DNA from: Candidatus Woesearchaeota archaeon
GTDB taxonomy: Archaea; Nanobdellota; Nanobdellia; SCGC-AAA011-G17; UBA489
DNA length: 64,000 nucleotides
Direction of reading: 5' to 3'
Assembly: GCA_964367375.1 (NCBI GenBank)
Contig: CAYIXG010000001.1
Location: 3,905-67,904, forward strand
A program made the position numbers and the translations under genes. The notes beneath the pieces are model-generated. The model saw nothing but the letters and a program-made list of their open reading frames with translations. It was not told where the DNA came from and ran no database searches. Shown here piece by piece: positions 8,849-40,300 of the stretch; within the stretch, counting starts at the first letter, position 1, and each line of letters begins with the position of its first letter.

Positions 8849-8873
8849 AAACCTCGCTGTTTTTTGATGCAGT

Positions 8874-8960
8874 GCCTCGGTAGCTCAGCTCGGTAGAGCA
8901 CGTGGCTGTTATAAACCAGCAGATACCACGCGGTCGAAGGTTCAAATCCTTCCTGAGGCG
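8874..8960 (+). tRNA. tRNA-Asn(GUU) with a 13-nt canonical anticodon-loop intron
   Basis: GCCTCGG-TA-GCTC-AGCTCGGTA-GAGC-A-CGTGG-CTGTTA[t aaaccagcagat]a-CCACG-CGGTC-GAAGG-TTCAAAT-CCTTC-CTGAGGC-G. All stems pair; the mature molecule would be 74 nt. Confidence 0.7.
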
Positions 8961-8963
8961 GAT

Positions 8964-9100
8964 GGGCCGGTAGCTCAGCCTGGCTGGAGCACAGGAATGA
9001 AAATTGAAATTCCGCTCTATCGACTGATAGCATCAGGTCAGGCATCGAGAGTATCAACAGATACCGATAAAGGTCGGAGGTTCAAATCCTCTCCGGCCCA
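8964..9100 (+). tRNA. Intron-containing tRNA gene, isotype unresolved (137 nt; ~62 nt of intervening sequence)
   Basis: Perfect acceptor stem GGGCCGG/CCGGCCC+A, canonical D arm TAGCTCAGCCTGGCTGGAGC, and T arm GGAGG-TTCAAAT-CCTCT. The 84 nt between them cannot be folded by eye into one anticodon arm plus a single 37/38 intron. The gene sits 3 nt after tRNA-Asn. Confidence 0.5.
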
Positions 9101-9222: not shown

Positions 9223-9894
9223 ATGAATCTCAAGATAAAGGCGGGGATGATGCACATACAGCTTCATGATAAGAGGAATAATATCATCGCAGTCATTGTA
9301 TTAGTCATGCTTTTTATTGGTGCAATTGTACTTCTAATACAGTTTGGTCCTGAAGTTGCAAACATTCAAGGAGGGAAAAGAGAAGGATATACTGAACTGA
9401 CTGAGATAGATATGAGAGTAGTAAATGAGTTGCATGCAAATGAGCTCACAATACTCGGAATAAAACTAGGTGATACGGCAGAGGACGTGAAGAAGAGGAA
9501 AGGTAATCCGGATAAGATAGGGCAGAAGAATGATGGTTCTGAAAGATGGGAGTTTGGAGCAAGCATAGGCCTTGAAAAAACAGGGATGATACTTACTGTA
9601 AAGGATGGAAAAGTTGCAAGAATCATGCTTCTTCCATCGTTCAACAAGCTATTGAAAGGTGATCCCCTTCTGGGAGTGATGACAAAGAATGAAATGTATG
9701 CATGGCTGGGTGCTCCGGAAGAATTCTTTTTTCGGCAGGTGTCATCTTCAAGCGCGCGTGTGTATCGAGAATATCAGTATCAAGAAAAAGGATTCATTAT
9801 TAATATTTTGAGTGGTGATGTGGTAAGCGTTGGATTCACTTCTTACTTTGACGGGAAATCAGATTTAACGAGTGGTGTGCAGGTTACTTCGTAG
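9223..9894 (+). CDS. Hypothetical membrane-anchored protein
   Basis: 223 aa with one N-terminal TM helix (IIAVIVLVMLFIGAIVLLI) and a hydrophilic C-terminal domain. Confidence 0.35.
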   Translation: MNLKIKAGMMHIQLHDKRNNIIAVIVLVMLFIGAIVLLIQFGPEVANIQGGKREGYTELTEIDMRVVNELHANELTILGIKLGDTAEDVKKRKGNPDKIGQKNDGSERWEFGASIGLEKTGMILTVKDGKVARIMLLPSFNKLLKGDPLLGVMTKNEMYAWLGAPEEFFFRQVSSSSARVYREYQYQEKGFIINILSGDVVSVGFTSYFDGKSDLTSGVQVTS

Positions 9895-11374
9895 AAGATG
9901 CATGCTTTGGAAATAAATTTTCTACTGTACAAATGGGTTTTCCTGTGGGAAGGAGGCCAAATTTCACATCGTCATAATTGCCGCATCCAATAGCAAGGAA
10001 GGTGTTGATTTTGCCACTTGTTTCGGGAATAAAAGGGCTTAAGAGAATGCCAATGATTCTGATGGCATCAAGCACATTATACAAGACTTCATTCCGGTCT
10101 TTCGCGTTTTCCCAGGGTTTTCGTTCGTTGATATATTTATTTACCTCATGCACAAAATCCCAGATGGTTGCGAGCGCGTGGTGAAGTTCATATATTTTCA
10201 TGTGCTTCTCTATTTTTTTCAAGTTTAGTTTTTCAACCAGTTCGCCATCCGGCTCTCCTTCAGGAATTTTTCCTTGGCAATGCTTCACGACAAGGGATTG
10301 TGTTCTGCTAATCAAATTTCCTAAGTCGTTTGCAAGCTCGTTGTTCAATCTGTTTTTCAGTGCCTCTTCGTTGAAGTCGCCATCTTCATGAACAGGTATT
10401 TCTCGAATGAGGAAATAGCGGAGTGCATCGCTTCCATAGGTGTGGATGAGTGGAAAAGGGTCAATGCTTGTGCCTGTCGATTTTGAAACTTTTTTTCCAT
10501 TGACAGTTAAGTATCCATGAACAAGGATGGTTTTTGGAGGTTGAGCGTCAATGCCTAATAAAATTGCTGGCCAAATGACTGAATGGAACCAGTTGATGCC
10601 TTTTCCAATAACCTGGATGTTTGCAGGCCAGTATTTTTTGTATGCGTCACCATCAGGATATCCGAGAGCAGTGATATAATTGCTTAACGCATCGATCCAG
10701 ACGTAAATAGTATGTGTTTCATCTCCAGGCACTGGAATTCCCCATTGTGCATGCATTCTACTGACACACAAATCTTTCAATCCTTCAGTTTGCAAACGTT
10801 GCAGCATCTCTTTTCGTTTTCCTTCTGGAAAGACAAATTGTTTTGATTCAAGCAATGCATGTATCTTACTCTCATACTTGCTCATCTTGAAGAAATAGCT
10901 TTCTTGCTCAATCCATTCTGGTACTTTGTCATGCTCAGGACATTTTTTATTGACAAGGTCTTTTTCAGTGATATATGCCTCGCAGCCAGTGCAGTAGTAT
11001 CCTTTGTAGACTCCCTTGTAAATGTCTCCTTTGGAAAGAAGAGTGGTAAATATAGCTTGTGCGATTTTCACGTGCCTTTTTTCAGTTGTTTTAATAAAAT
11101 CATCATGAGAAATATGAAGCTCGGTGCAAAGCTGTTGAAAGATTTTTGAGTTTTGATTGACAAATGCTTGAGTAGGAATGCTAGCTGCTTGCGCTGCTTG
11201 CTCATTCTTTTGAGCATTCTCATCTGTGCCTGTGAGGAAGAAAACATCATCTCCCTTCAGGCGGTGCCATCGTGCAAGAACGTCTGCAATAACCTTCTCA
11301 TAGGCATGTCCAATATGGGGGCGAGCATTCACGTAGTCAATTGCTGTGGTGATATAGAAGGTTTTTGAAGGCAT
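9884..11374 (-). CDS. metG: Methionyl-tRNA synthetase
   Basis: Class I aaRS motifs HIGH (PHIGHAYE) and KMSKS (KVSKSTG), a connective peptide with CxxC, and a MetRS-specific anticodon-binding helical domain. Confidence 0.9.
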   Translation of the reverse strand: MPSKTFYITTAIDYVNARPHIGHAYEKVIADVLARWHRLKGDDVFFLTGTDENAQKNEQAAQAASIPTQAFVNQNSKIFQQLCTELHISHDDFIKTTEKRHVKIAQAIFTTLLSKGDIYKGVYKGYYCTGCEAYITEKDLVNKKCPEHDKVPEWIEQESYFFKMSKYESKIHALLESKQFVFPEGKRKEMLQRLQTEGLKDLCVSRMHAQWGIPVPGDETHTIYVWIDALSNYITALGYPDGDAYKKYWPANIQVIGKGINWFHSVIWPAILLGIDAQPPKTILVHGYLTVNGKKVSKSTGTSIDPFPLIHTYGSDALRYFLIREIPVHEDGDFNEEALKNRLNNELANDLGNLISRTQSLVVKHCQGKIPEGEPDGELVEKLNLKKIEKHMKIYELHHALATIWDFVHEVNKYINERKPWENAKDRNEVLYNVLDAIRIIGILLSPFIPETSGKINTFLAIGCGNYDDVKFGLLPTGKPICTVENLFPKHASSTK

Positions 11375-11458: not shown

Positions 11459-11531
11459 GCGGTAGTAGTCCAACCTGGCAAGACACGACCTTCCCACGGT
11501 CGCGATGCGGGTTCAAATCCCGCCTGCCGCG
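11459..11531 (+). tRNA. tRNA-Gly(CCC)
   Basis: GCGGTAG-TA-GTCC-AACCTGGCA-AGAC-A-CGACC-TTCCCAC-GGTCG-CGAT-GCGGG-TTCAAAT-CCCGC-CTGCCGC-G. The acceptor has one G-U pair. Confidence 0.7.
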
Positions 11532-11535
11532 CTTC

Positions 11536-11607
11536 GGGCCCGTAGTCTATCGGCATGACGCCACCTTCACACGGTGGAGGTAGCAAGTTCAATTCTTGCC
11601 GGGCCCA
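11536..11607 (+). tRNA. tRNA-Val(CAC)
   Basis: GGGCCCG-TA-GTCT-ATCGGCA-TGAC-G-CCACC-TTCACAC-GGTGG-AGGTA-GCAAG-TTCAATT-CTTGC-CGGGCCC-A. Lies 4 nt after tRNA-Gly. Confidence 0.75.
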
Positions 11608-12080: not shown

Positions 12081-13382
12081 TTATTTCTTTCCTAAACTTT
12101 TCAGCCATCGTAAGAATGCGTTGAAGAATCCTGGCTCGACGCATACTTCTCCTTTGCAGAGATTGGTAGAACATTCAAAGTTGTTGCTGCATGAGCTATC
12201 AACAGGGAGTTGTTCAAGGACGTCTCCTTCGAGAGAACAGAATGTTGTTTCTTTCCGTGTGCCTACAGTCAAACACGCGTAATTATTTTCTGTGTCGTAG
12301 CATCCTTCGCAAGGATCAAGGCACATGTTATATTTTTCTGGACAAGAATTGGAGACACATTCAAAATCGTTTTTGCATGTTTGTGTTTTTTCTTTTTGTG
12401 CAGCAAATTGGTTGTCAAGCCCGCAGTAGTAGCCGTTTTCCCGATATGCAAAGGGAACACATCTGTTATCTGCAGTCATGCATCCACTGCATCCTTGTGT
12501 TCCAAGGGTGTATGAAATGCCTGGTGTATTGATACAATTGGCTTCAACGACAGCACTTCCCATGCCGCGGCAGGTGAACTGCCAGTTTGTGAAGGGAGCT
12601 GTACTTCCTAAACCTCCATAGCCACTTAACGGCGGCCTATTTTCGTATCCTGTGGATCCTGCTTCATTGCAGCCACCTTGTCCTCCAAGTGCTATTTCTC
12701 CACTACCACAAGATGCGATTGCGCTGTACGGTTCATACACTTCTGGAGTGTATTGCTGTTTTTGTTCAAAGATGTGGTGCAGAATGGTTGTTTCTTTTGG
12801 CACGCAAAATGCCTCGACTTCTGCTTTTCCTTCTCCCGCGCATCCTGCCATCCACCCTTGCAATTCATAATAGCCGTATCCTGTTGAGGTGCCGATGCGT
12901 TGGATGCCATTAGATACAGTCATGACAATTGCATTGTTTCCTGCTGGAATGCAGCGTGCTTGTCCTCCGATGGCAATTTCATTGGTGTTGCAGTTGGATT
13001 CTGCAAAGTAGGAGTTGTCATATCTTCCAGGGTTTGTGGAGGGGGTGCGAATGCCTGCTGTTGATGGCACTGTTCCTGAAGTTGCAACGCGATAGGAGAG
13101 TGAAGATCGTGGTGCACATAATGCCTGCACAAGTGCAACGCCGTCTCCAGTGCAAGTGACTTCCCATCCTTTTCCTCCAGGGAGGGATGTGCTTGATTGG
13201 AGCACTGCTCCTTGTGCTGTTTGTGTTCCTAATTGTCTGCATTCGACAGTTGCTCCGATTGCTATTTCATCTGATTCACAGAGGGATTGTGCGGTGAAAA
13301 TTTGTGCGGAAACAATGGCACTAAAAAGAACAATAAAAATGCTTATAGTAGAGAGGATTAATTTCATAAAATAAAGAATCAA
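12081..13382 (-). CDS. Secreted Cys-rich repeat protein (three ~85-aa CxxxEIA(I/L)GG repeats plus EGF-like C-terminal Cys knots)
   Basis: Signal peptide, then repeats SLCESDEIAIGATVEC / SNCNTNEIAIGGQARC / ASCGSGEIALGGQGGC. Each repeat ends ...(A/F)(L/F)C(A/V/I)(P/N), and a tail carries ~20 Cys. Confidence 0.5.
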   Translation of the reverse strand: MILYFMKLILSTISIFIVLFSAIVSAQIFTAQSLCESDEIAIGATVECRQLGTQTAQGAVLQSSTSLPGGKGWEVTCTGDGVALVQALCAPRSSLSYRVATSGTVPSTAGIRTPSTNPGRYDNSYFAESNCNTNEIAIGGQARCIPAGNNAIVMTVSNGIQRIGTSTGYGYYELQGWMAGCAGEGKAEVEAFCVPKETTILHHIFEQKQQYTPEVYEPYSAIASCGSGEIALGGQGGCNEAGSTGYENRPPLSGYGGLGSTAPFTNWQFTCRGMGSAVVEANCINTPGISYTLGTQGCSGCMTADNRCVPFAYRENGYYCGLDNQFAAQKEKTQTCKNDFECVSNSCPEKYNMCLDPCEGCYDTENNYACLTVGTRKETTFCSLEGDVLEQLPVDSSCSNNFECSTNLCKGEVCVEPGFFNAFLRWLKSLGKK

Positions 13383-13412: not shown

Positions 13413-14339
13413 TTAAACGTCAACTTCTTTTGGAAGTGCAAAGGTCATGTCTTCAGTGGTAGTAGTAAGTGTTTCAACAGCAGCATGTGGGTATCTCAAT
13501 TTCAAGGCATCAATTGTTTCTTGGACTGCTGCTTCTAATGCAGATGCGCCTGCAGTGATTCCAATAATATGCACTTCATCCATCCAATGATAATCAATGG
13601 CAGTTGCATCAGGAATGAGATGTGCCTGAACGCCTCTATTGATTGCAGTTTCCACTAATCTGTTGGAGTTTGAGCTGGTAGTATCTCCAAGCACGAGGAT
13701 AAGTTGTGCGCGTTCTGCAAGTGCCTTGACAGAATCTTGCCTGTTTTGGGTTGCGTAGCAAATGTCATCAGTGCGGGGTGCACGAATGTTTGGAAACCGT
13801 CTGCAAAGTGCTGCAATAATGTTTCTTGTATCATCAACAGAGAGGGTTGTTTGAGTTAAATACGCAACCTTATCATGATTTGGAAGAGTAACTTTTTCAG
13901 CGTCAGCAACTGTTTCAATGAGAATCATAGGTGCATACCCCATGGTGCCGATAACTTCTTGGTGTTTTTTATGGCCAATAAGAAGAAGAGAATATCCATC
14001 GCGGTTGTAGCGAAGCGCTTCTAAGTGCACTTTTGTCACGAGAGGGCATGTTGCATCAATCATTTTGAGTTCGCGTGCTGCTGCTTCCTCTTTGACATTG
14101 GGGGAAGTGCCGTGTGCGCTGAAGATGATAAGGTTGCCAGCAGGTACTTGACCAAGAGTATCAACAAAAACAGCTCCTTTCTGTTCAAGCTCATGAATGA
14201 CTCGCTCATTATGAACTATGTGGTGTCGTACATACACAGGTGTTCCATAAATCGTGAGTGCGCGTTCAACAGTTTCAACTGCTCGTTCCACTCCTGCGCA
14301 GAATCCTCTGGGTTCTGCAAGCAATATTTTCTCAACCAT
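13413..14339 (-). CDS. ispH: 4-hydroxy-3-methylbut-2-enyl diphosphate reductase (IspH/LytB)
   Basis: Full-length 308 aa. PRGFCAGVERAV, SAHG, ATCPLVTKVH and TTSSNSNRL match the IspH core, and the three Fe-S Cys ligands are in the conserved positions. Confidence 0.85.
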   Translation of the reverse strand: MVEKILLAEPRGFCAGVERAVETVERALTIYGTPVYVRHHIVHNERVIHELEQKGAVFVDTLGQVPAGNLIIFSAHGTSPNVKEEAAARELKMIDATCPLVTKVHLEALRYNRDGYSLLLIGHKKHQEVIGTMGYAPMILIETVADAEKVTLPNHDKVAYLTQTTLSVDDTRNIIAALCRRFPNIRAPRTDDICYATQNRQDSVKALAERAQLILVLGDTTSSNSNRLVETAINRGVQAHLIPDATAIDYHWMDEVHIIGITAGASALEAAVQETIDALKLRYPHAAVETLTTTTEDMTFALPKEVDV

Positions 14340-14382
14340 AATAAATGAAACAAATGAGTAAGATTTTTAAAAGTAGTGAAAG

Positions 14383-14457
14383 CGCTCCCGACGAGATTTG
14401 AACTCGTGTTCCAAGCTCGAGAAGCTCGTGTCCTAGACCGGACTAGACGACGGGAGC
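14383..14457 (-). tRNA. tRNA-Glu(CUC)
   Basis: Revcomp GCTCCCG-TC-GTCT-AGTCCGGTCTA-GGAC-A-CGAGC-TTCTCGA-GCTTG-GAAC-ACGAG-TTCAAAT-CTCGT-CGGGAGC-G. Confidence 0.75.
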
Positions 14458-14510: not shown

Positions 14511-14942
14511 TTATTCGCAAATAAACTCACATTTGGTGTTGGTTAAAACTCCGTCTTTTGTTGTTTGAACATTAATTCCGGGAAAAGGAAGGTTACTAGG
14601 GATCTTTTTAGAAACAGGATCACAAGGGCCTTTACATTCTATGGTACAAACAACTTTCCCTTTATGTCCTCCTGGACAGGTATAAGGTGTTGTTTCAGTA
14701 TATGGTTTTGATCCAGCAATAACACAATCACATGCAATACCTGTAGGTGCTGGTCCTACACGTTGGAGAGGTTGCGGTGCTGGTCGTGTGCTGGGTTGAG
14801 TGGTGGTAACTTGTTGTCCGGTAATAAAATCTGAATAATAATTTGAGGTGAAAGAAGCTGTAGGGTTAAGGAATGATAAGAAAAATGCGAGAACAATAAG
14901 TGTAATAATAAGCACAAAATGGTGATACCCTCTTTTTTCCAT
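14511..14942 (-). CDS. Small secreted Cys-rich protein
   Basis: 143 aa with a signal/anchor helix, then a Pro/Thr linker and 8 Cys (CDCVIAG...CPGGHKGKVVCTIECKGPCD...CEFIC). Confidence 0.35.
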   Translation of the reverse strand: MEKRGYHHFVLIITLIVLAFFLSFLNPTASFTSNYYSDFITGQQVTTTQPSTRPAPQPLQRVGPAPTGIACDCVIAGSKPYTETTPYTCPGGHKGKVVCTIECKGPCDPVSKKIPSNLPFPGINVQTTKDGVLTNTKCEFICE

Positions 14943-14984
14943 ACTCTTTCTTTTATATTGAAGTATTTAAATATTATGAAAAAG

Positions 14985-15086
14985 TAGCCCCGGGAGGATT
15001 TGAACCTCCGTCAGCGGAGCCAGAGTCCGCTATCCTTGGTCCATTAACCGTTTGGAGCTAATGTTAGACCGCTAGACTACGGGGCT
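14985..15086 (-). tRNA. tRNA-Gln(CUG) with a probable ~29-nt non-canonical intron in the D-loop
   Basis: Revcomp AGCCCCG-TA-GTCT-[agcggtctaacattagctccaaacggttaatggaccaa]-GGAT-A-GCGGA-CTCTGGC-TCCGC-TGAC-GGAGG-TTCAAAT-CCTCC-CGGGGCT-A. A1:U72 with A73 (the archaeal Gln signature), a perfect anticodon arm, and the extra sequence located between the D-stem halves. Confidence 0.5.
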
Positions 15087-15148: not shown

Positions 15149-15454
15149 ATGATCATTATATACACAACATGCAAGGATAAGAAAGAGGCGGAGAAGATTT
15201 CTACTCGTTTGTTGAAGAAGAGGCTGTGCGCGTGCACGAATATCTTTCCTATTGCTTCAATGTACTGGTGGGAGGGAAGCCTGGTGAAGGGAAAGGAATG
15301 GGCAGTATGGATAAAGACGAAAAAAGGAAAATTTAATGAAGTGAGTAGAGAGATTAAAAAAGTGCATTCATATAAGACACCATGTATCCTGTCTTTTGCA
15401 GTGAAGCATAAAGATAGTAAATATCACGCGTGGTTACAAGGAGAAGTGAAATGA
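15149..15454 (+). CDS. cutA: Divalent-cation tolerance protein CutA
   Basis: 101 aa; MIIIYTTCKDKKEAEKISTRLLKKRLCACTNIFP...SMYWWEG matches the CutA1 family pattern. Confidence 0.7.
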   Translation: MIIIYTTCKDKKEAEKISTRLLKKRLCACTNIFPIASMYWWEGSLVKGKEWAVWIKTKKGKFNEVSREIKKVHSYKTPCILSFAVKHKDSKYHAWLQGEVK

Positions 15455-15867
15455 CATTGCAAGAGCCGACATCAATGGATGAGTGTGTCTATTTTACAAA
15501 CCGTTCTATTGGGAAGGGAAAGGCAAGGATGTGGGTCTTTCGGGAGAAATGCCCGAAGTGTGGTCAAGCATTGATGGGAAAGCCTCGGGATCCGAAAACA
15601 GGAAAGCCAAAGATTCGTGCAAAAGAGTATGTATGTCCATCGTGTCACTACACTGTTGAAAAAGAGGCGTATGAAGACACATTGACAGCGAATGTGCAAT
15701 ATACTTGTCCGTATTGTGCTTTGCAAGGAGAAATACAAGTGTCATTTAATCGGAGGAAGGTGCAGCGCGTTGATGAGGAGTTGCAGAAAAAAGCCACTGT
15801 GGATGCGTTGCGCTTTACATGTGGGAAATGTGGGAAGAATATTGACGTGACGAAGAAGATGAAGTAA
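15451..15867 (+). CDS. Zinc-ribbon protein (two CxxC...CxxC modules)
   Basis: CPKCGQ-(x21)-CPSCHY and CPYCAL-(x23)-CGKCGKN. The start overlaps the cutA stop. Confidence 0.4.
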   Translation: MTLQEPTSMDECVYFTNRSIGKGKARMWVFREKCPKCGQALMGKPRDPKTGKPKIRAKEYVCPSCHYTVEKEAYEDTLTANVQYTCPYCALQGEIQVSFNRRKVQRVDEELQKKATVDALRFTCGKCGKNIDVTKKMK

Positions 15868-15869
15868 TA

Positions 15870-16079
15870 TTATTCTTTTGACGCAAGTTTCACGTCTGCC
15901 CCTTTCACGGTTTTTCTGCCGGAGTGTTGTGCAAACTTGATTGCCTTCACACCAAGTCCTGCAGCGACTTCTTCAAGGTATTCTCTGAGGGCGTCTTTCG
16001 CGTCCTCGCTAACCCTGCCAGCTCCTGCTTTTTTCAGGAGTTTTTCCATGGCTGCCAAAGGCAGAATAGTGCGTGTCAT
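15870..16079 (-). CDS. Archaeal histone (HMf/HTa family)
   Basis: 69 aa; LPLAAMEKLLKKAGAGRVSEDAKDALREYLEEVAAGLGVKAIKFAQHSGRKTVKGADVKLA aligns along the whole length with the HMfB histone fold. Confidence 0.85.
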   Translation of the reverse strand: MTRTILPLAAMEKLLKKAGAGRVSEDAKDALREYLEEVAAGLGVKAIKFAQHSGRKTVKGADVKLASKE

Positions 16080-16124
16080 GGTAAAGAGCGTACGATTTAT
16101 TGATGAATGGGGAAAATAAGTTTG

Positions 16125-16139
16125 TTTATAAACTTTCTG
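16125..16139 (-). promoter_or_regulatory. BRE/TATA promoter of the histone gene
   Basis: On the minus strand, CAGAAAG-TTTATAAA lies ~45 nt upstream of the histone ATG. Confidence 0.35.
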
Positions 16140-16374
16140 CTTGAACAGGGTGTTCTTTCATAGAGAGGGAGAGAAGGGAAGAACGTGAGGAGGAAAAAAG
16201 AATGGAAAACCACAATCTTTAAAAACTAGTAATAGGCCTGCTATGTTACCCTTTACTGAACAATATGGCTCTGCCATATAATAAGCCAAAACAGCCGCTG
16301 ATTCTCAGCGAATACCGCCTAAGAGGGTGGTGTAGCACACGAAAAATGAGACACACATGAATAACTGGTAAGAC

Positions 16375-17301
16375 ATGGCAGGTGCAAACAGACTGAATTG
16401 GCCGCGAAGGGGAAGTATGCAATTTTGGCCCAGAAAGAGGTCTCGTCGCCCGTATCCCTGGGTGAGGTCATGGGCACTAGTTGCGCAGCCGAAGCTTCTG
16501 GGTTTTATTGGGTATAAGGCAGGAATGACGCACATTCTGTATAATGAGACTCGTTCAAATGCGCGGTTCAAGGGTGAAAAGGTGATGATGCCGGTAACTA
16601 TTCTTGAGTGTCCTCCGATAACTCCTCGTTCTCTCCGTTTTTATAAAAAAACAGTGTATGGCTTGCATCTGGTGGGTGAAGTATATCCTGAAAAAGGAAA
16701 AAAGCAGGGAAAGAAGCCTGATGTGTTTGATGAAGTTCGTTTGGTTATTGAAACAAACCCTGAAAAGACGGGGATTGGTAAAAAAGTTCCTGATGTGATG
16801 GAAATAACAGTTTCTGGTTCAAATAATGATGAAAAGGTTAAATATGCTTTAGATTTAATAAATAAGGATATAAAAGTCTCTGAAGTTGTTAAAGAGGGTC
16901 AATTTGTGGATGTGCATGGAGTAACAAAAGGAAAGGGGTATCAAGGAACAGTCAAGCGATATGGAGTGAAGATTCGCCAGCACAAATCAGAGAAAGTCAA
17001 GAGGGGCGTCGGTACATTAGGTCCATGGACGCCAAAGAAAGTTTCCTATCGTGTTCCACAGCCAGGAAAGATGGGATATCATGCACGAACAGAATATAAT
17101 AAGCAAGTGATCAAGATAAGTGCAAATCCCGAGGAGATTAATCCAAAGTCTGGATTGATCAAATATGGAAATGTCAAGAATGAGTATCTTCTGATTAAAG
17201 GGTCGCTTCCCGGTTCGCGAAAAAGGCCTCTTATAGTAACTGAATGTATTCGTCCATTGCACAAACCAGAGCAGAAGGAGATTATCTATATTCACAAATG
17301 A
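16375..17301 (+). CDS. rpl3: 50S ribosomal protein L3
   Basis: WPRRGSMQFWPRKRS N-terminus and FKGEKVMMPVTILE...GKGYQGTVKRYGVK core. Confidence 0.9.
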   Translation: MAGANRLNWPRRGSMQFWPRKRSRRPYPWVRSWALVAQPKLLGFIGYKAGMTHILYNETRSNARFKGEKVMMPVTILECPPITPRSLRFYKKTVYGLHLVGEVYPEKGKKQGKKPDVFDEVRLVIETNPEKTGIGKKVPDVMEITVSGSNNDEKVKYALDLINKDIKVSEVVKEGQFVDVHGVTKGKGYQGTVKRYGVKIRQHKSEKVKRGVGTLGPWTPKKVSYRVPQPGKMGYHARTEYNKQVIKISANPEEINPKSGLIKYGNVKNEYLLIKGSLPGSRKRPLIVTECIRPLHKPEQKEIIYIHK

Positions 17302-18161
17302 AAACTTCAATTTATGCAATTGATGGAAAGAAAGGAAGCACAATAGCATTGCCAGTGCAGTTTGCAGAGGAAGTGCGTCCTGATTTAATTCGGCGTGCAG
17401 TGGTGAGTATGCAAGCAAATGCGCGGCAGCCATATGGTGCGTTTCCAAAGGCTGGTCAGCGTCCATCTGCAGTCTTGTCCAGAAGAAGAAGAAAGTACAA
17501 GACATCATATGGGCATGGTATTTCAAGAGTGCCGAGAAAAGCATTATGGAAGCGAGGAAGGCAATTTGGATGGGTGGGCGCGTTTGCTCCGGGAATGGTG
17601 AAAGGAAGAAGAGCGCATCCTCCAAAAGCGCAGAAGATATTTGCAAAGAGTATTAATGAAGGGGAGAGAAGAAAGGCAATCAGGTCTGCGCTTGCAGCGT
17701 CAGTGAACATTGAATGGGTGAAGAATCGCGGTCATAAAGTGTCTGAGCTTCCCTCTGTTGTGGAAAAGAAAATGGAGAAAATCACGAAAACGAGCGAAGT
17801 CTATGAGGTGTTGCAACGATTGCAGTTAGGGCAAGAGCTTGATCGCGTTGCAGGAAGAAAAGTGCGTGCAGGAAAAGGAAAGCTTCGCGGAAGAAGGTAC
17901 AAGACAAAAAAAGGGCCATTAATTGTAGTTGCAGGAGCGTGTGCATTGTTAAAAGCGGCGCACAATATTCCAGGTGTGGATGTGTGTGCAGTGCACCAGG
18001 TGAATGCAGAGCGTCTAGCTCCAGGTGGAAATCCTGGGCGGCTTACTATTTACAGTGAAGATGCAATTGCTCGCTTGGAAAAGGAGCAGTTGTTCATGCA
18101 CAAGAAAAACAGGAGAGGAAAATTAGAACAGCGGAAGGACAAGGGAGAGACAAAGGAATAA
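17298..18161 (+). CDS. rpl4: 50S ribosomal protein L4 (L1e)
   Basis: MKTSIYAIDGKKGSTIALP... The ATG overlaps the rpl3 stop (ATGA). Confidence 0.9.
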   Translation: MKTSIYAIDGKKGSTIALPVQFAEEVRPDLIRRAVVSMQANARQPYGAFPKAGQRPSAVLSRRRRKYKTSYGHGISRVPRKALWKRGRQFGWVGAFAPGMVKGRRAHPPKAQKIFAKSINEGERRKAIRSALAASVNIEWVKNRGHKVSELPSVVEKKMEKITKTSEVYEVLQRLQLGQELDRVAGRKVRAGKGKLRGRRYKTKKGPLIVVAGACALLKAAHNIPGVDVCAVHQVNAERLAPGGNPGRLTIYSEDAIARLEKEQLFMHKKNRRGKLEQRKDKGETKE

Positions 18162-18164
18162 ACC

Positions 18165-18425
18165 ATGGATCCCTATATCGTTATTCACAATCCAATCACA
18201 ACAGAGAAGGCAGTCAGATTAATGGAATCTCAAAACAAGCTCGTGTTTATTGTTGATCAGAAAGCAACGCGCAATGATATTAAGAAGGCTGCAGAAGAAA
18301 TGTTTAAAATTAAAGTGCTGAAGGTAAATACATTAATTAATAGGTGGGGAAAGAAGAAGGCCTATGTAAAGCTTTCTCCGGAAACTCCGGCAATTGATGT
18401 GGCAACACAGCTCGGGTTGTTATAA
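18165..18425 (+). CDS. rpl23: 50S ribosomal protein L23
   Basis: 86 aa; [43 protein letters not shown]. Confidence 0.9.
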
Positions 18426-18426
18426 A

Positions 18427-19152
18427 ATGGGAAAACGAATTATCTCGCAACGGCGCGGACGGGGAACATTTACTTACAGAGCGCCCTCCCATCACTATGT
18501 TGCAGCAGTGAAGCATCGGCAGTATGATGAGATTGAGCGGTCTGGCATGGTGAATGGAATTATTGTTGATTTGGTTGATTGCCCTGGACATTCTGCGCCA
18601 CTCGCGCAGGTGAAATATGAAAACAATGATAAAGGGTACATTTTTGCTGCAGAAGGAATGAAGATGCATGACACAATTGCAAGCGGTTTTAATGCCCCGG
18701 TAAAGGTTGGATGTACACTTCCGTTAAAGAAAATTCCTGAGGGGACGCACATTTACAATATTGAAGTGAGGCCTGAGGATAAGGGGAAGTTGGTGCGCGC
18801 GGGAGGAAGCTCAGCTCAAATAGTGGGAATAACAGAGCATGAAGTGACTGTGATGATGCCATCGCGAAAGAAAAAGGTGTTTCATCCCCTCTGCCGTGCA
18901 ACAATTGGGATCATTGCCGGATCAGGAAGGAAGGAAAAGCCGTTCATGAAGGCAGGAAAGAGGCATCATGCGATGCGTGCAACAGGAAAACTGTATCCAA
19001 GAACATCCGGTGTTGCGATGAACGCTGTTGATCATCCCTTTGGAAGTGGTCGTGGTCGACATGTCGGAAAACCAAAGACAGTATCGCGGCACGCTCCTCC
19101 GGGAAGAAAAGTAGGAAAGATTGCTGCACGAAGGACAGGAAGGAGAAGATAA
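18427..19152 (+). CDS. rpl2: 50S ribosomal protein L2
   Basis: MGKRIISQRRGRGT...GGRGRHVGKPKTVSRHAPPGRKVG. Confidence 0.9.
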   Translation: MGKRIISQRRGRGTFTYRAPSHHYVAAVKHRQYDEIERSGMVNGIIVDLVDCPGHSAPLAQVKYENNDKGYIFAAEGMKMHDTIASGFNAPVKVGCTLPLKKIPEGTHIYNIEVRPEDKGKLVRAGGSSAQIVGITEHEVTVMMPSRKKKVFHPLCRATIGIIAGSGRKEKPFMKAGKRHHAMRATGKLYPRTSGVAMNAVDHPFGSGRGRHVGKPKTVSRHAPPGRKVGKIAARRTGRRR

Positions 19153-19153
19153 G

Positions 19154-19558
19154 ATGGTCATAAAGCAGTTTTCATATCGGGGAAAAACATTGGAAGAATT
19201 GCAGAAGATGGATGTGAAAGAGTTCATGCAGTGTGTCACATCAAGGAAAAGAAGGACATTGAAGCGGAACATTGTCGAGCAGTACAAGCCACTAATTGAA
19301 AAAATAAGGAAGGCAAAGGCAGGATTAAGGAAGAAGCCGATTAAGACGCACGCGCGCGAGATGGTTGTCTTGCCAGAAATGGTGGGATTGACAATTCATG
19401 TGCATGCAGGAAAAGCGTTTGTTCCTATCATAATTACAGAAGAAATGATTGGATTGTTCCTCGGCGAGTTAACCATGACGCGATCAAGAGTTGAGCACTC
19501 TGCGCCAGGTATTGGTGCAACAAAGTCAAGTACCGCTGCGGCAACAAAGGCGAAGTAA
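19154..19558 (+). CDS. rps19: 30S ribosomal protein S19
   Basis: MVIKQFSYRGKTLEELQKM...GLTIHVHAGKAFVPIIITEEMIGLFLGE. Confidence 0.9.
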   Translation: MVIKQFSYRGKTLEELQKMDVKEFMQCVTSRKRRTLKRNIVEQYKPLIEKIRKAKAGLRKKPIKTHAREMVVLPEMVGLTIHVHAGKAFVPIIITEEMIGLFLGELTMTRSRVEHSAPGIGATKSSTAAATKAK

Positions 19559-19559
19559 C

Positions 19560-20084
19560 ATGGCTGAAAACGAACATACGGCATCAGTGTATGGGAAGAA
19601 TTTGCCTATTTCGACGAAGCAGACGCATGAAATTTGTAGTTTTATTAGAGGAAAGTCTATTGCAGCATCGAAGGCGTACTTGCAGCAGGTGATGGCAAAG
19701 CAAAAGGCAATTCCATTCAAGAAGTTTAATCAGGATACAGGTCACAAGAGGACGATGGCTGCAGGAAGGTATCCTTTCAAAGCATCAAAGTACATGATTA
19801 AAATGTTGGAGTCTTTAGAAGCGAATGCAAGCAACAAGGGTTTAGACACGGATGCGTTGTATATTAAGACAATTATTTCAAACTGGGCTTCTCGACCCTT
19901 TCATTTTGGAAGAAAGAGGAGAGTGAAGATGCGGAGGACGCACGTGCAGATTATTGCTGAGGAAAGAGAAAATAAAGAGAAAAAGCGTGCGCCACCTCAG
20001 AAGAAAGCGCAGCCAGCACCACAAGTGCAAAAGCAGGAGCACAAGCAACAGGAAGCGACGCAGAAGGAGCAACAGAAAAAATGA
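19560..20084 (+). CDS. rpl22: 50S ribosomal protein L22 (Lys/Gln-rich C-terminal tail)
   Basis: MAENEHTASVYGKNLPISTKQTHEICSFIRGKSI..., followed by a ~50-aa low-complexity KQE tail. Confidence 0.85.
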   Translation: MAENEHTASVYGKNLPISTKQTHEICSFIRGKSIAASKAYLQQVMAKQKAIPFKKFNQDTGHKRTMAAGRYPFKASKYMIKMLESLEANASNKGLDTDALYIKTIISNWASRPFHFGRKRRVKMRRTHVQIIAEERENKEKKRAPPQKKAQPAPQVQKQEHKQQEATQKEQQKK

Positions 20085-20908
20085 TTGAGCGTCAATTTGT
20101 CTCTCAAAAATTGAAGGAGAAGCAGATTCAACAGTACATGGCAAAGACCTTGTCCAAGGCAGGGTATTCACATACGGAAATTAAAGTGACTCCTTTGGGA
20201 GAGAAGGTCATTATTTACACCACAAGGCCAGGAATTGTTGTCGGGAAGAAGGGCGAGAACATCAAGAAGTTGACTGCATACTTGAAGAGCAAGTTCAAGA
20301 TGGAGAATCCGCAGATTGAGGTGGGTGAGGTGCAAAACCCAATGCTTGATGGGCAGTATGTTGCTGATCGTATTGCATACAATCTTGAGCGGTTTGGTGC
20401 AAAGCGTTTCAAGTCCATTGGATATAAGGTGTTGCAGGAAGTGATGAGTGCAGGAGCAACAGGTGTCGAGCTTGTAATTTCAGGAAAGGTGCCAAGTTCG
20501 CGTGCAAAGTCATGGCGTTTTTCCGCAGGCTATTTGAAGAAGTCAGGAGACATTCATTATTCAAAGATAAAGAAGGTTATTGTTGAGGCAAATTTGAAGA
20601 TTGGAGTTATTGGAATCAAGTTGAGTATCATGACTCCAGATATTGAGCTTCCAGACAAGATGGTTATTATTGATGACAAGACAGTGAAGCTTGAGGAAGT
20701 GAAGCAAGAAAGTGCAGTTGTGGAGAAGAAAGAGGAAGCAATAATTGAGGTGAAGGAGTCTGCAGTGCAGGTTGTTGAAAAGCAGGAAGGGCAAGCAGAA
20801 GCAAAGCCAACAAAGAAGAGAGTAAAAAAATCAGAAGCTGAGCAGAAAGAGAAGAAGCCAAGAAAAACAAAGAAGGAGAAGGAAGATGGCACTGATTCGA
20901 AAGAGTGA
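20081..20908 (+). CDS. rps3: 30S ribosomal protein S3 (KH domain; long K/E-rich C-terminal extension)
   Basis: MIERQFVSQKLKEKQIQQYM...VVGKKGENIKKL (KH), then a ~75-aa KE-rich tail. Confidence 0.9.
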   Translation: MIERQFVSQKLKEKQIQQYMAKTLSKAGYSHTEIKVTPLGEKVIIYTTRPGIVVGKKGENIKKLTAYLKSKFKMENPQIEVGEVQNPMLDGQYVADRIAYNLERFGAKRFKSIGYKVLQEVMSAGATGVELVISGKVPSSRAKSWRFSAGYLKKSGDIHYSKIKKVIVEANLKIGVIGIKLSIMTPDIELPDKMVIIDDKTVKLEEVKQESAVVEKKEEAIIEVKESAVQVVEKQEGQAEAKPTKKRVKKSEAEQKEKKPRKTKKEKEDGTDSKE

Positions 20909-21173
20909 ATTTCGGCAGATGACAGAAATGCAATTGAAAGAAAAGCTTGGAGAGTTGAGAAAGGAAATGCTCAAAATTAATGCGCAGCGTTCAACAAAAA
21001 CAACGCCGGAAAATCCAGGAAGGATCAAGGCAGTGCGGAAGACGATTGCGCGAATACTCACCGTTCAACACCAGATGAAAACAGCAAAGCCTCAACAGCA
21101 GCAACAGCAGAAAGAGAAGCGTGTTGAAGGAAAGAAAAAAGTGCAAGGAGGAAAGAAAACAAAGCATGAGTGA
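20886..21173 (+). CDS. rpl29: 50S ribosomal protein L29
   Basis: [35 protein letters not shown]. Confidence 0.85.
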
Positions 21174-21474
21174 AATATGCCCAAAATGCGGACTTGCAAA
21201 GGCGCTCTGCGTATGTGAAACCATTGCGAAAGAAGAGCAGAAGATTAAAGTGACTGCGATGAAGCGGAAGTTTGGAAAGATGACGACAGTGGTGACAGGG
21301 ATCAGCGCAAAGGATATCGATTTGAAGGATGTCGGAAAAAAGCTCAAATCAAAGCTTGCGTGTGGCGGCACGGTCAAGAACAATGCAATAGAATTGCAAG
21401 GTGACCACCGGCAGCAGGTAAAGGAAGAGCTTATAAAAATGGGTTTTTCCGCAGAATCGATAGAAGTGAAGTAA
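21166..21474 (+). CDS. Translation initiation factor SUI1 (aIF1)
   Basis: [18 protein letters not shown]..., with [20 protein letters not shown] and [18 protein letters not shown] of the SUI1 fold. Confidence 0.8.
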
Positions 21475-21475
21475 C

Positions 21476-21736
21476 ATGCGGGTCAAGGACATCTTGAAGT
21501 GCGAGCTCATCGGGCTTGCAGTTGAGGTGGTCAGCGCAAAGAACCCGAGCCTGAATGGCATCCGTGGAAAAGTGGTGGACGAGACGAAGTACACGCTCGT
21601 CATTGAAACAGTGAGAGGCGTGAAGCGGCTCATCAAGAGCCAAGTCACGTTAAAAATGAACATGGAAGGAAAAACAGTTGAAGTGGAAGGGAGCGCCCTT
21701 GTGGGGCGTTCTGAAGAAAGGATAAAAAAACGATGA
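21476..21736 (+). CDS. rnp1: RNase P protein component 1 (Rpp29/Pop4 homologue)
   Basis: 86 aa; LIGLAVEVVSAKNPSLNGIRGKVVDETKYTLVIE (Sm-like barrel). It is in the conserved archaeal position between L29/SUI1 and S17. Confidence 0.7.
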   Translation: MRVKDILKCELIGLAVEVVSAKNPSLNGIRGKVVDETKYTLVIETVRGVKRLIKSQVTLKMNMEGKTVEVEGSALVGRSEERIKKR

Positions 21737-22089
21737 AAGCAGCAACACAGAAGAAGGAAGGAAAAAGTTCCAGTATTGGATTAGCAGTCGCTCTCCCTAC
21801 AAAAACGTGCAATGATAGGCATTGCCCTTTTCATGGCGGCTTAAAACTGCGGGGAAGAGTTTTTACAGGAAAAGTATTGAGGAATGTGTTTCATAGAACA
21901 GTAGCAATTGAGTTTGGCCGGCAAATTCTCTTGAAGAAGTATGAGCGTTTCGAGAAGCGAAAGACGAGGATTACTGCGCATGTTCCTGATTGTCTGGATG
22001 TGAAGAAGGGATCAATGATAAAGGTAGTGGAATCTCGTCCTATTTCAAAGACAAAGTCGTTCGTTGCTGTCGAGGTGATAAAGCAATGA
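21733..22089 (+). CDS. rps17: 30S ribosomal protein S17
   Basis: GRVFTGKVLRNVFHRTVAIEF...MIKVVESRPISKTKSFV. Confidence 0.85.
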   Translation: MKAATQKKEGKSSSIGLAVALPTKTCNDRHCPFHGGLKLRGRVFTGKVLRNVFHRTVAIEFGRQILLKKYERFEKRKTRITAHVPDCLDVKKGSMIKVVESRPISKTKSFVAVEVIKQ

Positions 22090-22487: not shown

Positions 22488-22491
22488 GAGA

Positions 22492-22884: not shown

Positions 22885-22885
22885 G

Positions 22886-24099: not shown

Positions 24100-24326
24100 C
24101 TACAAGTAGCTATACAAAGGTGTTCAAGCAGCTGAAGAGCAAGCCTGCAAAGTTGCTGAAGTTCAAGAAGCATAACGCTCCGAAGAAAAGGACGTGCGGA
24201 AAGGCGTTGCACAAGTGCAGGATGTGTGGGAGGGCTGGGGGCCACATCCAAAAATATGGCTTGAAGCTCTGTCGTCAGTGTTTTAGGGAAATTGCAAAGG
24301 ACATAGGATTCAAGAAGTATGCGTAG
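24096..24326 (+). CDS. rps14: 30S ribosomal protein S14 (Zn type)
   Basis: [32 protein letters not shown]. Confidence 0.9.
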
Positions 24327-24337
24327 GAGAACAAACC

Positions 24338-28142: not shown

Positions 28143-28144
28143 GA

Positions 28145-38551: not shown

Positions 38552-38572
38552 CCAATATATTTATTAAGCGTC

Positions 38573-40298: not shown

Positions 40299-40300
40299 GG

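What the first reader, a model, noticed from the sequence alone, without database searches (positions are those of the whole stretch)
13413..14339. Bacterial-type MEP-pathway enzyme IspH (LytB) in an archaeal chromosome
A full-length, well-conserved IspH with all three [4Fe-4S] cysteine ligands sits between a secreted Cys-rich repeat protein and a tRNA-Glu gene. Archaea make isoprenoid precursors through mevalonate-type pathways and normally lack MEP enzymes. No other MEP gene is present in this window. Either it was laterally acquired from bacteria and has been repurposed, for example for salvage or HMBPP detoxification, or it reflects an unusual hybrid isoprenoid metabolism in a reduced-genome archaeon.
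Basis: partly seen in the sequence, partly recalled or inferred. Interest (0 to 1): 0.5.

Follow-up and report, generated by a model that had tools for sequence, protein, structure and literature searches.

The report
Bacterial-type IspH in a DPANN archaeon
A tiny groundwater archaeon of the Woesearchaeota/Nanoarchaeota group carries an intact bacterial-type IspH, the last enzyme of the bacterial route to isoprenoid building blocks; this was already reported for the group, so the only open point is whether the enzyme works alone here or with partner genes elsewhere in the genome.

Summary
Window 13413-14339 (-) encodes a full-length 308-aa IspH/LytB. It scores 300 bits on Pfam LYTB and passes TIGR00216. 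It is about 52% identical to E. coli IspH, keeps all 16 functional residues checked (including Cys14, Cys98, Cys194), and its predicted fold matches E. coli IspH at TM 0.92-0.94.

The contig is archaeal: TFB, histone, an archaeal ribosomal-protein operon, a fused PriS-PriL primase, and SecY 70-80% identical to Nanoarchaeota/Woesearchaeota SecY. An independent assembly shows the same linkage, and GC and codon use match the host, so contamination is excluded. No other MEP, mevalonate or prenyltransferase gene was found in the 64 kb.

The gene sits in a variable, tRNA-flanked islet between MetRS and the ribosomal operon. Relatives lack IspH there.

Bacterial MEP genes in Woesearchaeota are already published (Castelle & Banfield 2018; Castelle 2021; Huang 2021; Hoshino & Gaucher 2018). 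This is a new member of a known kind.

One wrinkle remains. This is the long E. coli-like type and is solitary, as in five other archaeal loci. One DPANN contig places this type beside IspG, ferredoxin, an FNR-like reductase and SUF genes. Published tables show ispH-only Woesearchaeota genomes. I could not retrieve the rest of this genome, so pathway versus salvage stays open.

The parts
13413..14339 (-). ispH (lytB) coding sequence, 308 aa, long E. coli-like type. Cluster ligands Cys14/Cys98/Cys194; His43, His76, His126, Glu128, Thr164, Thr165, Ser222, Ser223, Asn224, Ser266.
   Evidence: AlphaFold model: mean pLDDT 95.6. Foldseek TM 0.92-0.94, rmsd 1.7-2.0 A to E. coli IspH structures 3KE8, 3F7T and 3SZU.
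14363..14372 (-). TTTTAAAAAT, a TATA-box-like element centred about 28 nt upstream of the ispH ATG, inside the 42-nt spacer after tRNA-Glu. This would give a leaderless or near-leaderless archaeal transcript.
   Evidence: Read directly from the sequence. This is inference only, because the spacer is AT-rich and such a match can arise by chance. The sigma-70 scan of the region is at background: 12 sites found against 8.3 +/- 2.9 expected.
14382..14457 (-). tRNA-Glu(CTC), immediately upstream of ispH on the same strand. Together with tRNA-Gln(CTG) it is the conserved anchor of the islet.
   Evidence: The same tRNA-Glu(CTC)/tRNA-Gln(CTG) pair sits between MetRS and the Zn-ribbon gene in relative L090.
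14984..15059 (-). tRNA-Gln(CTG), the second conserved tRNA of the islet.
12081..13367 (-). Secreted Cys-rich repeat protein with no Pfam or NCBIfam family. It lies 45 nt downstream of ispH on the same strand and is the second lineage-specific gene of the islet.
   Evidence: Relatives L090 and L150 have no homologue at this position.
11459..11607 (+). tRNA-Gly(CCC) and tRNA-Val(CAC), at the left edge of the variable islet.
9884..11374 (-). Methionyl-tRNA synthetase, the conserved left backbone gene.
   Evidence: Orthologues at 48-49% identity flank the same region in L090 and L150.
15451..17301 (.). Conserved right backbone: Zn-ribbon protein (+), archaeal histone 15870-16079 (-), ribosomal protein L3 16375-17301 (+), which starts the ribosomal-protein operon.
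   Evidence: The same order occurs in L090 (Zn-ribbon 60%, histone 73%, L3 60% identity) and partly in L150.

Best explanation
The gene encodes a catalytically competent [4Fe-4S] HMBPP reductase (IspH). A Woesearchaeales/Nanoarchaeia-type DPANN archaeon obtained it from bacteria. The transfer is old enough that base composition and codon use now match the host, and a TATA-like archaeal promoter element precedes the gene.

The enzyme takes two electrons from a reduced ferredoxin or flavodoxin. [quoted passage not shown]

I take it to be the terminal step of the bacterial MEP route, or at least of an IspG-IspH end-module. This archaeal group is already known to have adopted that route in place of the mevalonate pathway. 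On this reading the partner genes lie elsewhere in the genome and are not clustered with it.

**Shown here:** family membership, intact active site, fold, archaeal host, lineage-specific position in a tRNA-flanked variable islet, and solitary status within 64 kb.

**Inferred:** enzymatic activity, expression, the bacterial donor, and above all the presence of IspG and upstream enzymes elsewhere in the genome.
For: **Family, active site and fold**
- Family membership and full length.
- All 16 E. coli functional residues are conserved.
- Predicted fold matches E. coli IspH at TM 0.92-0.94.

**Archaeal DPANN host**
- Window genes include TFB, histone, ribosomal proteins L32e/L19e/S4e, fused primase, prefoldin and Alba.
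- SecY is 70-80% identical to proteins named Nanoarchaeota, Nanoarchaeia or Woesearchaeota archaeon.

**Not an artefact**
- An independent ENA assembly from Hainich groundwater (0.1 um fraction) carries ispH-tRNA-Glu on one side and MetRS on the other at 100% identity. The two sides are joined across a 100-N scaffold gap.
- ispH GC is 0.441, GC3 0.324 and codon log-likelihood -1.073. Window genes average 0.427 +/- 0.039, 0.41 +/- 0.083 and -1.087 +/- 0.061.

**Bacterial affinity and DPANN relatives**
- The best 80 genome-collection hits are all bacterial at 49-56% identity.
- In neighbour-joining trees the protein falls in an assemblage of DPANN and Ignavibacteria-like (FCB) IspH, with bootstrap 49-58%. 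Hoshino & Gaucher 2018 describe the same pattern.
- A profile of six DPANN-type IspH ranks Nanoarchaeia and Woesearchaeota proteins above all named bacterial ones.

**Pathway context in the group**
- Literature.
- On an archaeal contig (L173), the same long-type IspH lies next to a bona fide IspG (NF001540, 420.7 bits, cut-off 345). A 2Fe-2S ferredoxin, an FNR-like reductase and a SufBDS-NifU-SufC operon are also adjacent.
Against: - No MEP partner, ferredoxin or flavodoxin of that kind, or prenyltransferase occurs in the 64-kb window or the 5.8 kb upstream of it.
- Five other archaeal loci with this IspH type (L082, L085, L086, L171, L172, representing four lineages) also lack any MEP gene within +/-10 kb, less where the contig ends.
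- Pathway-positive Woesearchaeota are reported to have co-located MEP genes. Their ispH has a Halanaerobium best hit, and its domain matches end near residue 270, suggesting a shorter protein.
- Fig. 3a source data of Huang 2021 show ispH without any of the other six genes in subgroups B (1/8), C (1/11), E (1/9) and I (2/21). ispH is also in excess of ispG in subgroups D, H and J.
- The tree is star-like, so neither the donor nor the number of transfers is resolved.
Confidence: 0.5

Rival explanations
1. Stand-alone salvage enzyme. The genome has IspH but no IspG or upstream MEP enzymes and no mevalonate pathway. The archaeon is a likely episymbiont. It would take up HMBPP made by bacterial neighbours or hosts and convert it in one step into IPP and DMAPP for its few isoprenoid needs. 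It might equally use the enzyme to remove HMBPP.
For: - ispH-only Woesearchaeota genomes appear in published source data. In subgroups B, C, E and I, none of 49 genomes has any other MEP gene, yet 5 have ispH.
- ispH is solitary in the window and in five other archaeal loci.
- It occupies different genomic positions in different lineages, which suggests repeated gain or relocation of this one gene:
  - window: between MetRS and L3;
  - L171: next to GlyRS and RadA;
  - L082/L086: next to a thermosome gene.
- IspH identity to L171 is 55%, while L171 TFB is 85%, Alba 75% and GlyRS 61% identical to the window's.
- 41 relatives with at least 3 kb upstream of L3 lack IspH at the window's position.
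- A related locus carries a lytic transglycosylase and an M23 peptidase. This fits the published suggestion that some small-genome Woesearchaeota and Pacearchaeota may be episymbionts of bacteria.
Against: - Absence from the neighbourhood is not absence from the genome, and in bacteria MEP genes are usually dispersed.
- One DPANN contig pairs this IspH type with IspG, ferredoxin and an FNR-like reductase.
- HMBPP is a charged, low-abundance intracellular metabolite and no importer is known.
- Metagenome-assembled genomes are incomplete.
- Nothing in the window points to a transporter linked to ispH.
Confidence: 0.35
2. The protein has drifted to another role, or is a relic on its way out. Other roles could include reduction or hydration of a different allylic or acetylenic substrate, or a regulatory 'LytB'-type role.
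For: - It has no pathway context.
- IspH substrate promiscuity is noted in the literature (PMC13001223).
Against: - Every substrate-binding and catalytic residue is unchanged, in the window protein and in eight related proteins.
- The reading frame is intact, and a 99.4%-identical variant exists in another sample.
- The fold is predicted with very high confidence in the closed IspH geometry.
- This degree of conservation argues for selection on the canonical reaction.
Confidence: 0.12
3. Assembly or binning artefact: a bacterial fragment joined to an archaeal contig.
For: The gene's nearest named relatives are mostly bacterial.
Against: - Archaeal tRNAs and genes flank it on both sides within one contig.
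- The same junctions occur at 100% identity in an independently assembled replicate sample.
- Composition and codon use are indistinguishable from neighbouring genes.
- Homologues sit in unmistakably archaeal contexts in at least five other lineages.
Confidence: 0.03

Closest known systems
E. coli IspH/LytB (HMBPP reductase; PDB 3KE8, 3F7T, 3SZU)
   Same: - About 52% identity over the full length.
- Same length class, including the C-terminal extension.
- All three cluster cysteines conserved, plus His41, His74, His124, Glu126, Thr167, Thr168, Ser225, Ser226, Asn227 and Ser269.
- Predicted structure superposes at TM 0.92-0.94.
   Different: - Encoded in a DPANN archaeon.
- Preceded by a TATA-like element instead of a bacterial promoter.
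- No MEP partner genes found nearby.
- Activity not tested.
MEP-pathway clusters of Woesearchaeota (Castelle & Banfield 2018; Castelle et al. 2021, PMC8204110; Huang et al. 2021, PMC8421398, subgroup J)
   Same: - Bacterial IspH in a Woesearchaeota-type archaeon that apparently lacks the mevalonate route.
- Interpreted as horizontal acquisition from bacteria.
   Different: - In those genomes ispH lies within a few genes of ispG and ispF. Its best match is Halanaerobium (Firmicutes), and its domain matches end near residue 270, suggesting a shorter protein.
- Here the protein is the long E. coli-like type (NF002190) and is solitary in 64 kb.
- I could not obtain a subgroup-J sequence for direct comparison, so the 'different type' statement rests on the published annotation tables.
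Long-type IspH of other DPANN archaea found here
   Same: - The set: P0103 (GCA_014384375.1), P0054 (GCA_016180105.1), P0264 (Nanoarchaeia), P0265 (GCA_016185605.1), P0254 (contig Ga0210057_1000177).
- 302-312 aa and 54-58% identical to the window protein.
- Same conserved residues in the members included in the residue check (P0103, P0073, P0054).
- Archaeal gene neighbourhoods.
- Ranked first by a DPANN IspH profile.
   Different: - Each lineage has the gene at a different locus.
- P0254 alone has IspG, a ferredoxin, an FNR-like reductase and SUF genes adjacent.
- Mutual identities (52-60%) are no higher than identities to bacterial IspH, and clade support is weak (bootstrap 49-58%).
IspH of Ignavibacteria/FCB-group bacteria (P0267, P0332)
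   Same: They fall in the same weakly supported assemblage as the DPANN proteins. This matches the DPANN + CPR + FCB grouping reported by Hoshino & Gaucher 2018.
   Different: - The context of P0267 is bacterial, with a DNA polymerase III alpha subunit and a Por secretion tail.
- Dxs lies about 4 kb away.

Membership tests
[quoted passage not shown] | Full-length match to the family models above curated cut-offs | tested here: met
   - PF02401: 300.7 bits, cut-off 24.5, profile positions 1-267 of 267.
- TIGR00216: 296.5 bits, cut-off 187.85.
- NF002190: 411.7 bits, cut-off 389.
- NF002188: 413 bits, slightly below its cut-off of 420.
[quoted passage not shown] | Three conserved cysteines that hold the [4Fe-4S] cluster (E. 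coli C12, C96, C197) | tested here: met
   Cys14, Cys98 and Cys194 align with them. They are invariant in the 60-sequence alignment.
[quoted passage not shown] | Diphosphate-binding and proton-relay residues (E. coli H41, H74, H124, E126, T167, T168, S225, S226, N227, S269) | tested here: met
   All are identical in the window protein: H43, H76, H126, E128, T164, T165, S222, S223, N224, S266.
[quoted passage not shown] | Three-domain trefoil alpha/beta fold | tested here: met
   - AlphaFold2 model: mean pLDDT 95.6, pTM 0.89.
- The only Foldseek hits at E <= 0.001 are IspH structures. TM is 0.92-0.94 to the E. coli enzyme and 0.96 to the Plasmodium enzyme.
[quoted passage not shown] | HMBPP reductase activity with a low-potential electron donor | not testable with these tools
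   - This needs complementation of an E. coli ispH mutant or an in vitro assay.
- No ferredoxin or flavodoxin was recognised in the window.
Complete bacterial MEP pathway in an archaeon (as described for Woesearchaeota) | Dxs, Dxr, IspD, IspE, IspF and IspG encoded in the same genome | not testable with these tools
   - None occurs in the 64-kb window or the 5.8 kb upstream.
- The rest of the 216-kb contig and of the genome could not be fetched.
Complete bacterial MEP pathway in an archaeon (as described for Woesearchaeota) | Co-location of ispH with other MEP genes, as reported for the pathway-positive Woesearchaeota clade | tested here: not met
   - No MEP gene lies within 13 kb on one side or 50 kb on the other.
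- In the literature, co-location is reported.
DPANN-associated IspH lineage | Branches with IspH from DPANN archaea and not with one bacterial phylum | tested here: inconclusive
   - Neighbour-joining places it with DPANN plus FCB-type sequences, but bootstrap is only 58% (201 sequences) and 49% (292 sequences).
- Internal branches are very short.
- A profile search ranks DPANN-named proteins first.
- No maximum-likelihood program was available.
Archaeal (DPANN, Woesearchaeales/Nanoarchaeia-like) replicon | Archaeal information-processing genes on the same contig and best matches to that group | tested here: met
   - Window genes: TFB, histone, an archaeal ribosomal-protein operon with L32e, L19e and S4e, fused PriS-PriL primase, prefoldin, Alba.
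- SecY is 70-80% identical to Nanoarchaeota/Woesearchaeota proteins.

The most novel reading that the evidence does not exclude
A solitary long-type IspH, with no IspG, no upstream MEP enzymes and no mevalonate pathway, has been gained or moved repeatedly in Woesearchaeales/Nanoarchaeia-type DPANN archaea. It would serve as a one-enzyme salvage route that turns HMBPP taken from bacterial hosts or neighbours into IPP and DMAPP. That would be a cross-domain dependence on a bacterial pathway intermediate. It is visible in published presence/absence tables, but none of the papers I read discusses it.
Probability: 0.3. Interest if true: 0.6.

Novelty: new member of a known kind. Interest (0 to 1): 0.25.

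Why it matters
**As it stands:** this is one more example of a known pattern. Woesearchaeota-type DPANN archaea have replaced or supplemented archaeal isoprenoid precursor synthesis with bacterial MEP enzymes. The pattern bears on the 'lipid divide' and on how much these reduced archaea borrow from bacteria.

**The part worth following:** the distribution of ispH relative to the rest of the pathway.
- If many DPANN genomes truly carry only IspH, or only IspG, IspH and a ferredoxin, they would depend on bacterial MEP intermediates.
- That would point to bacterial rather than archaeal partners.
- It would also be a rare case of salvage of a late isoprenoid intermediate.

The L173 module (SUF, ferredoxin, FNR-like reductase, IspH, IspG) is also a tidy, testable unit. 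It shows how an oxygen-sensitive bacterial Fe-S end-module can be installed in an archaeon.

Tried and rejected
1. **Finding the organism's own genome in the species-representative collection.** I used IspH as the query. 
2. **Walking along the 216-kb parent contig.**
   - Look-ups returned only short ENA and Logan contigs.
   - The left end gained 5.8 kb with no MEP gene.
   - The right-end gene is GlyRS, which is cut by the window end, so its protein was not on record.
3. **Synteny test.** I fetched 80 metagenome loci around ribosomal protein L3 of relatives. None has IspH. This shows the locus is lineage-specific but says nothing about the rest of those genomes.
4. **Mobile-element signature.** No att-like direct repeats, integrase or transposase occur around the islet. 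The 'integrative element at a tRNA' idea was dropped.
5. **Recent-transfer signature.** GC and codon use are not deviant, so the idea was rejected.
6. **Literature supplements.**
   - The gene-neighbourhood table of Castelle 2021 and the supplement of Hoshino & Gaucher 2018 are not held.
   - The ispH alignment of Huang 2021 is held, but the subgroup-J gene identifiers I searched for do not occur in it. I therefore made no direct sequence comparison with the cluster-borne IspH.
7. **NUDIX proteins as possible type-1 IPP isomerases.** Only weak MutT-like and RppH-like scores, far below cut-offs, so rejected.
8. **Phylogeny.** Only neighbour-joining with bootstrap was possible. Single versus multiple acquisitions remain unresolved.
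Full report

Yes. The minus strand of 13413..14339 carries an ATG-initiated ORF of 308 codons.
- It matches Pfam LYTB (PF02401) from the first to the last profile position: 300.7 bits, cut-off 24.5.
- It passes the TIGR00216 ispH_lytB equivalog (296.5 bits, cut-off 187.85) and the NF002190 subfamily model (411.7 bits, cut-off 389). It is 7 bits short of the NF002188 equivalog cut-off.
- Against solved structures the best matches are E. coli IspH entries, at E about 1e-95 over residues 4-307.
- I aligned it with E. coli IspH and eight related proteins and checked 16 functionally described positions. All are identical:
  - cluster ligands C12, C96, C197, which are Cys14, Cys98, Cys194 here;
  - H41, H74, H124, E126, T167, T168, S225, S226, N227, S269;
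  - three further conserved positions.
- An AlphaFold2 model built on a 60-sequence alignment has mean pLDDT 95.6. It superposes on E. coli IspH-HMBPP complexes at TM 0.92-0.94 and rmsd 1.7-2.0 A. Only IspH structures score at E <= 0.001.

- A Cys-rich protein with an N-terminal signal-like segment lies at 12081-13367. It has three internal repeats of about 285 nt and no family match.
- tRNA-Glu(CTC) lies at 14382-14457, 42 nt upstream of ispH on the same strand.

**2. Is the replicon archaeal, and is the gene really part of it?**

The window encodes clearly archaeal genes:
- TFB (2119-3042) and an archaeal histone (15870-16079);
- the archaeal ribosomal-protein operon from L3 to L15, including L32e, L19e and S4e, followed by SecY (16375-29952);
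- a fused PriS-PriL primase (31599-32951), prefoldin, and Alba (55264-55593).

SecY is 70-80% identical to proteins that NCBI names Nanoarchaeota, Candidatus Nanoarchaeia or Candidatus Woesearchaeota archaeon. The organism is therefore a Woesearchaeales/Nanoarchaeia-type DPANN archaeon.

Exact-sequence look-ups show the window belongs to a 216,132-bp NCBI contig. The same proteins also occur in ENA assemblies of the 0.1-um fraction of Hainich groundwater well H51.

Contamination or chimerism is excluded:
- One ENA contig (L001) reproduces ispH, tRNA-Glu and most of the Cys-rich gene on one side and tRNA-Val, tRNA-Gly, MetRS and four more genes on the other, at 100% identity. The two sides are joined by a 100-N scaffold gap.
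- ispH has GC 0.441, GC3 0.324 and a codon-choice log-likelihood of -1.073. The 46 window genes average 0.427 +/- 0.039, 0.41 +/- 0.083 and -1.087 +/- 0.061.

The 42-nt spacer upstream of the ATG contains TTTTAAAAAT centred about 28 nt before the start codon. That is where an archaeal TATA box for a leaderless mRNA would sit. This is suggestive only, because the spacer is AT-rich.

**3. What surrounds it, and how old is the locus?**

No other MEP enzyme, mevalonate-pathway enzyme, IPP isomerase or prenyltransferase was found in the window.
- Pfam scans covered 48 ORFs, including every large non-ribosomal one.
- tblastn with an IspG from an archaeal contig and a bacterial Dxs was negative.
- The 5.8 kb upstream of the window, seen in L088, adds LSM, S8e, Sua5 and a NUDIX protein, and nothing relevant.

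I fetched 80 metagenome loci around ribosomal protein L3 of relatives (45-60% L3 identity).
- 41 of them have more than 3 kb upstream of L3, and none has IspH there.
- The closest, L090, keeps the backbone MetRS - x - tRNA-Glu(CTC) - tRNA-Gln(CTG) - x - Zn-ribbon - histone - L3. It has unrelated hypothetical genes where the window has the Cys-rich gene and ispH.
- L150 has MetRS, two tRNAs and the Zn-ribbon gene directly adjacent.

So ispH sits in a small variable islet anchored by tRNA genes. Its presence there is specific to this lineage. There are no att-like repeats and no integrase. The gene is fully ameliorated, so the insertion is not recent.

**4. Relatives of the protein**

- Apart from a 99.4%-identical variant in another sample (2 substitutions), nothing exceeds 60% identity.
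- The 80 best matches among species-representative genomes are all bacterial, at 49-56% identity. They span Actinomycetota, Planctomycetota, Proteobacteria, Acidobacteriota and others.
- In neighbour-joining trees the window protein groups with proteins from DPANN archaea, bacteria of the Ignavibacteria/FCB type and one further bacterium. Support is 58% (201 sequences) and 49% (292 sequences), and internal branches are very short.
- A profile of six DPANN-type sequences retrieves another 20 or so proteins of 302-316 aa ahead of the bulk of bacterial IspH. All the named ones near the top are archaeal: Candidatus Nanoarchaeia and Candidatus Woesearchaeota.
- This agrees with Hoshino & Gaucher 2018, who found DPANN MEP enzymes grouping with CPR and FCB bacteria.
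- Mutual identities among the archaeal lineages (52-60%) are no higher than identities to bacteria. One versus several acquisitions cannot be decided here.

**5. Genomic contexts of those relatives**

Archaeal contexts without any MEP gene in the sequence available (up to 10 kb each side):
- L082 and L086, one lineage (GCA_014384375.1): thermosome, TrmB, Spt5, FtsZ.
- L085, Woesearchaeota GCA_016180105.1: archaeal FBP aldolase/phosphatase, Lon.
- L171, marine Nanoarchaeia: L37e, LSM, S8e, tRNA-splicing endonuclease, S17e. Its TFB is 85%, Alba 75% and GlyRS 61% identical to the window's, while IspH is only 55% identical. ispH lies between GlyRS and RadA.
- L172, Woesearchaeota GCA_016185605.1: ispH - LAGLIDADG - RadA.

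Bacterial contexts:
- L087: bacterial RpoB and SSB.
- L170: DnaE, Por secretion tail, and Dxs about 4 kb away.

One archaeal contig is different. L173 carries diphthamide synthase, aIF2-gamma, S6e and aIF5B. There ispH lies in the order SufB - SufD - SufS - NifU - SufC - 2Fe-2S ferredoxin - FNR-like reductase - small ORF - IspH - small ORF - IspG. The IspG passes its equivalog model (NF001540, 420.7 bits, cut-off 345). That is a coherent Fe-S end-module with its own electron supply.

**6. What is already known?**

Bacterial MEP genes in this archaeal group are established in the literature:
- Castelle et al. [quoted passage not shown] They cite Castelle & Banfield 2018 for the first report.
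- Huang et al. 2021 state that only the MEP pathway exists in Woesearchaeota. They place it mainly in subgroup J and infer bacterial donors.
- An oxygen-deficient-zone study finds MEP genes in Woesearchaeota and Nanoarchaeota genomes.

**7. What is slightly unusual?**

Two things.
- *A different IspH type.* The pathway-positive subgroup-J genomes have ispH within a few genes of ispG and ispF. Its best match is Halanaerobium, and its domain matches end near residue 270, suggesting a shorter protein. The window protein is the long E. coli-like type and is solitary. This comparison rests on published annotation tables, not on a direct alignment.
- *ispH-only genomes in published data.* The Fig. 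3a source data of Huang et al. give ispH frequencies that exceed those of the other six genes wherever ispH occurs. In subgroups B, C, E and I, 5 of 49 genomes have ispH while none has any other MEP gene. None of the papers I read comments on this.

Together with the five solitary archaeal loci above, a stand-alone IspH is a real possibility. L173 shows that this IspH type can also accompany IspG.

**8. Most likely mechanism**

The enzyme reduces HMBPP to IPP and DMAPP using a low-potential ferredoxin or flavodoxin. The intact active site and fold support this; the activity itself is inferred.

I rate the readings as follows:
- 0.5: it is the last step of an endogenous but unclustered MEP route, or at least of an IspG-IspH end-module.
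- 0.35: it is a solitary salvage enzyme acting on HMBPP obtained from bacteria.
- 0.12: it has another role or is a decaying relic. The perfect conservation argues against this.
- 0.03: it is an artefact.

The discriminating datum is the gene content of the rest of this genome, which the tools could not deliver.

**9. Verdict**

- It is a new member of a known kind, with low-to-moderate interest (0.25).
- The most novel reading not excluded is a recurrent, one-enzyme HMBPP salvage in DPANN archaea: probability about 0.3, interest about 0.6 if true.

Noticed in passing
L173:3843-12615 (JGI contig Ga0210057_1000177, archaeal context): A compact module: SufB - SufD - SufS - NifU - SufC - 2Fe-2S ferredoxin - FNR-like reductase - small ORF - IspH - small ORF - IspG. 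It sits on a DPANN-type contig that also carries diphthamide synthase, aIF2-gamma, S6e and aIF5B. It looks like a self-sufficient Fe-S end-module of the MEP pathway installed in an archaeon.
   Followed up: partly
window 49048-50526 (-): The lysyl-tRNA synthetase is the bacterial-type class II enzyme (TIGR00499 lysS_bact, 596 bits, cut-off 428). It may be another bacterial-like gene on this archaeal contig.
   Followed up: no
window 47000-54000: A lower-GC stretch (0.36-0.39 against about 0.43). It includes:
- a methyltransferase at 47977-48582 with GC 0.26 and GC3 0.13, the strongest compositional outlier in the window;
- a B12-binding radical SAM protein at 51008-52525, whose weak best NCBIfam match is 'lipid biosynthesis B12-binding/radical SAM';
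- an AAA_28 protein and a NUDIX protein.

A B12-binding radical SAM and a second radical SAM gene also lie about 6 kb from ispH in L082.
   Followed up: partly
window 31599-32951 (+): A single 450-aa protein combines the small and large primase subunit domains (PriS-PriL fusion).
   Followed up: no
window 44329-46632 (-): A 767-aa fused MFS-like membrane domain plus spermidine synthase (NCBIfam NF037959, fused MFS/spermidine synthase).
   Followed up: no
window 8873-9100 (+): Two adjacent tRNA-like genes that are longer than usual. One is 89 nt, and ARAGORN could not assign it an amino acid (four-base anticodon call). The other is 137 nt and scores 35.6 bits on the Rfam tRNA model. Both probably contain introns.
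   Followed up: no
window 35045-44314 and 12081-13367, 14511-14942: Many predicted secreted or membrane-anchored proteins without family assignment. Several are Cys-rich and one has lamin-tail domains (40301-41779). The Cys-rich protein next to ispH has three repeats of about 95 aa.
   Followed up: no
L171:17576-20707 (relative; marine Nanoarchaeia contig Ga0211525_10001095): An SLT lytic transglycosylase and an M23 peptidase lie 7-10 kb from that genome's ispH. Castelle et al. 2021 suggested that murein-degrading proteins of this kind indicate bacterial hosts for some Woesearchaeota and Pacearchaeota.
   Followed up: no
Huang et al. 2021 (PMC8421398), Fig. 3a source data: ispH is more frequent than any other MEP gene in every Woesearchaeota subgroup where it occurs. 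It occurs alone in subgroups B, C, E and I. The paper's text does not discuss this.
   Followed up: partly
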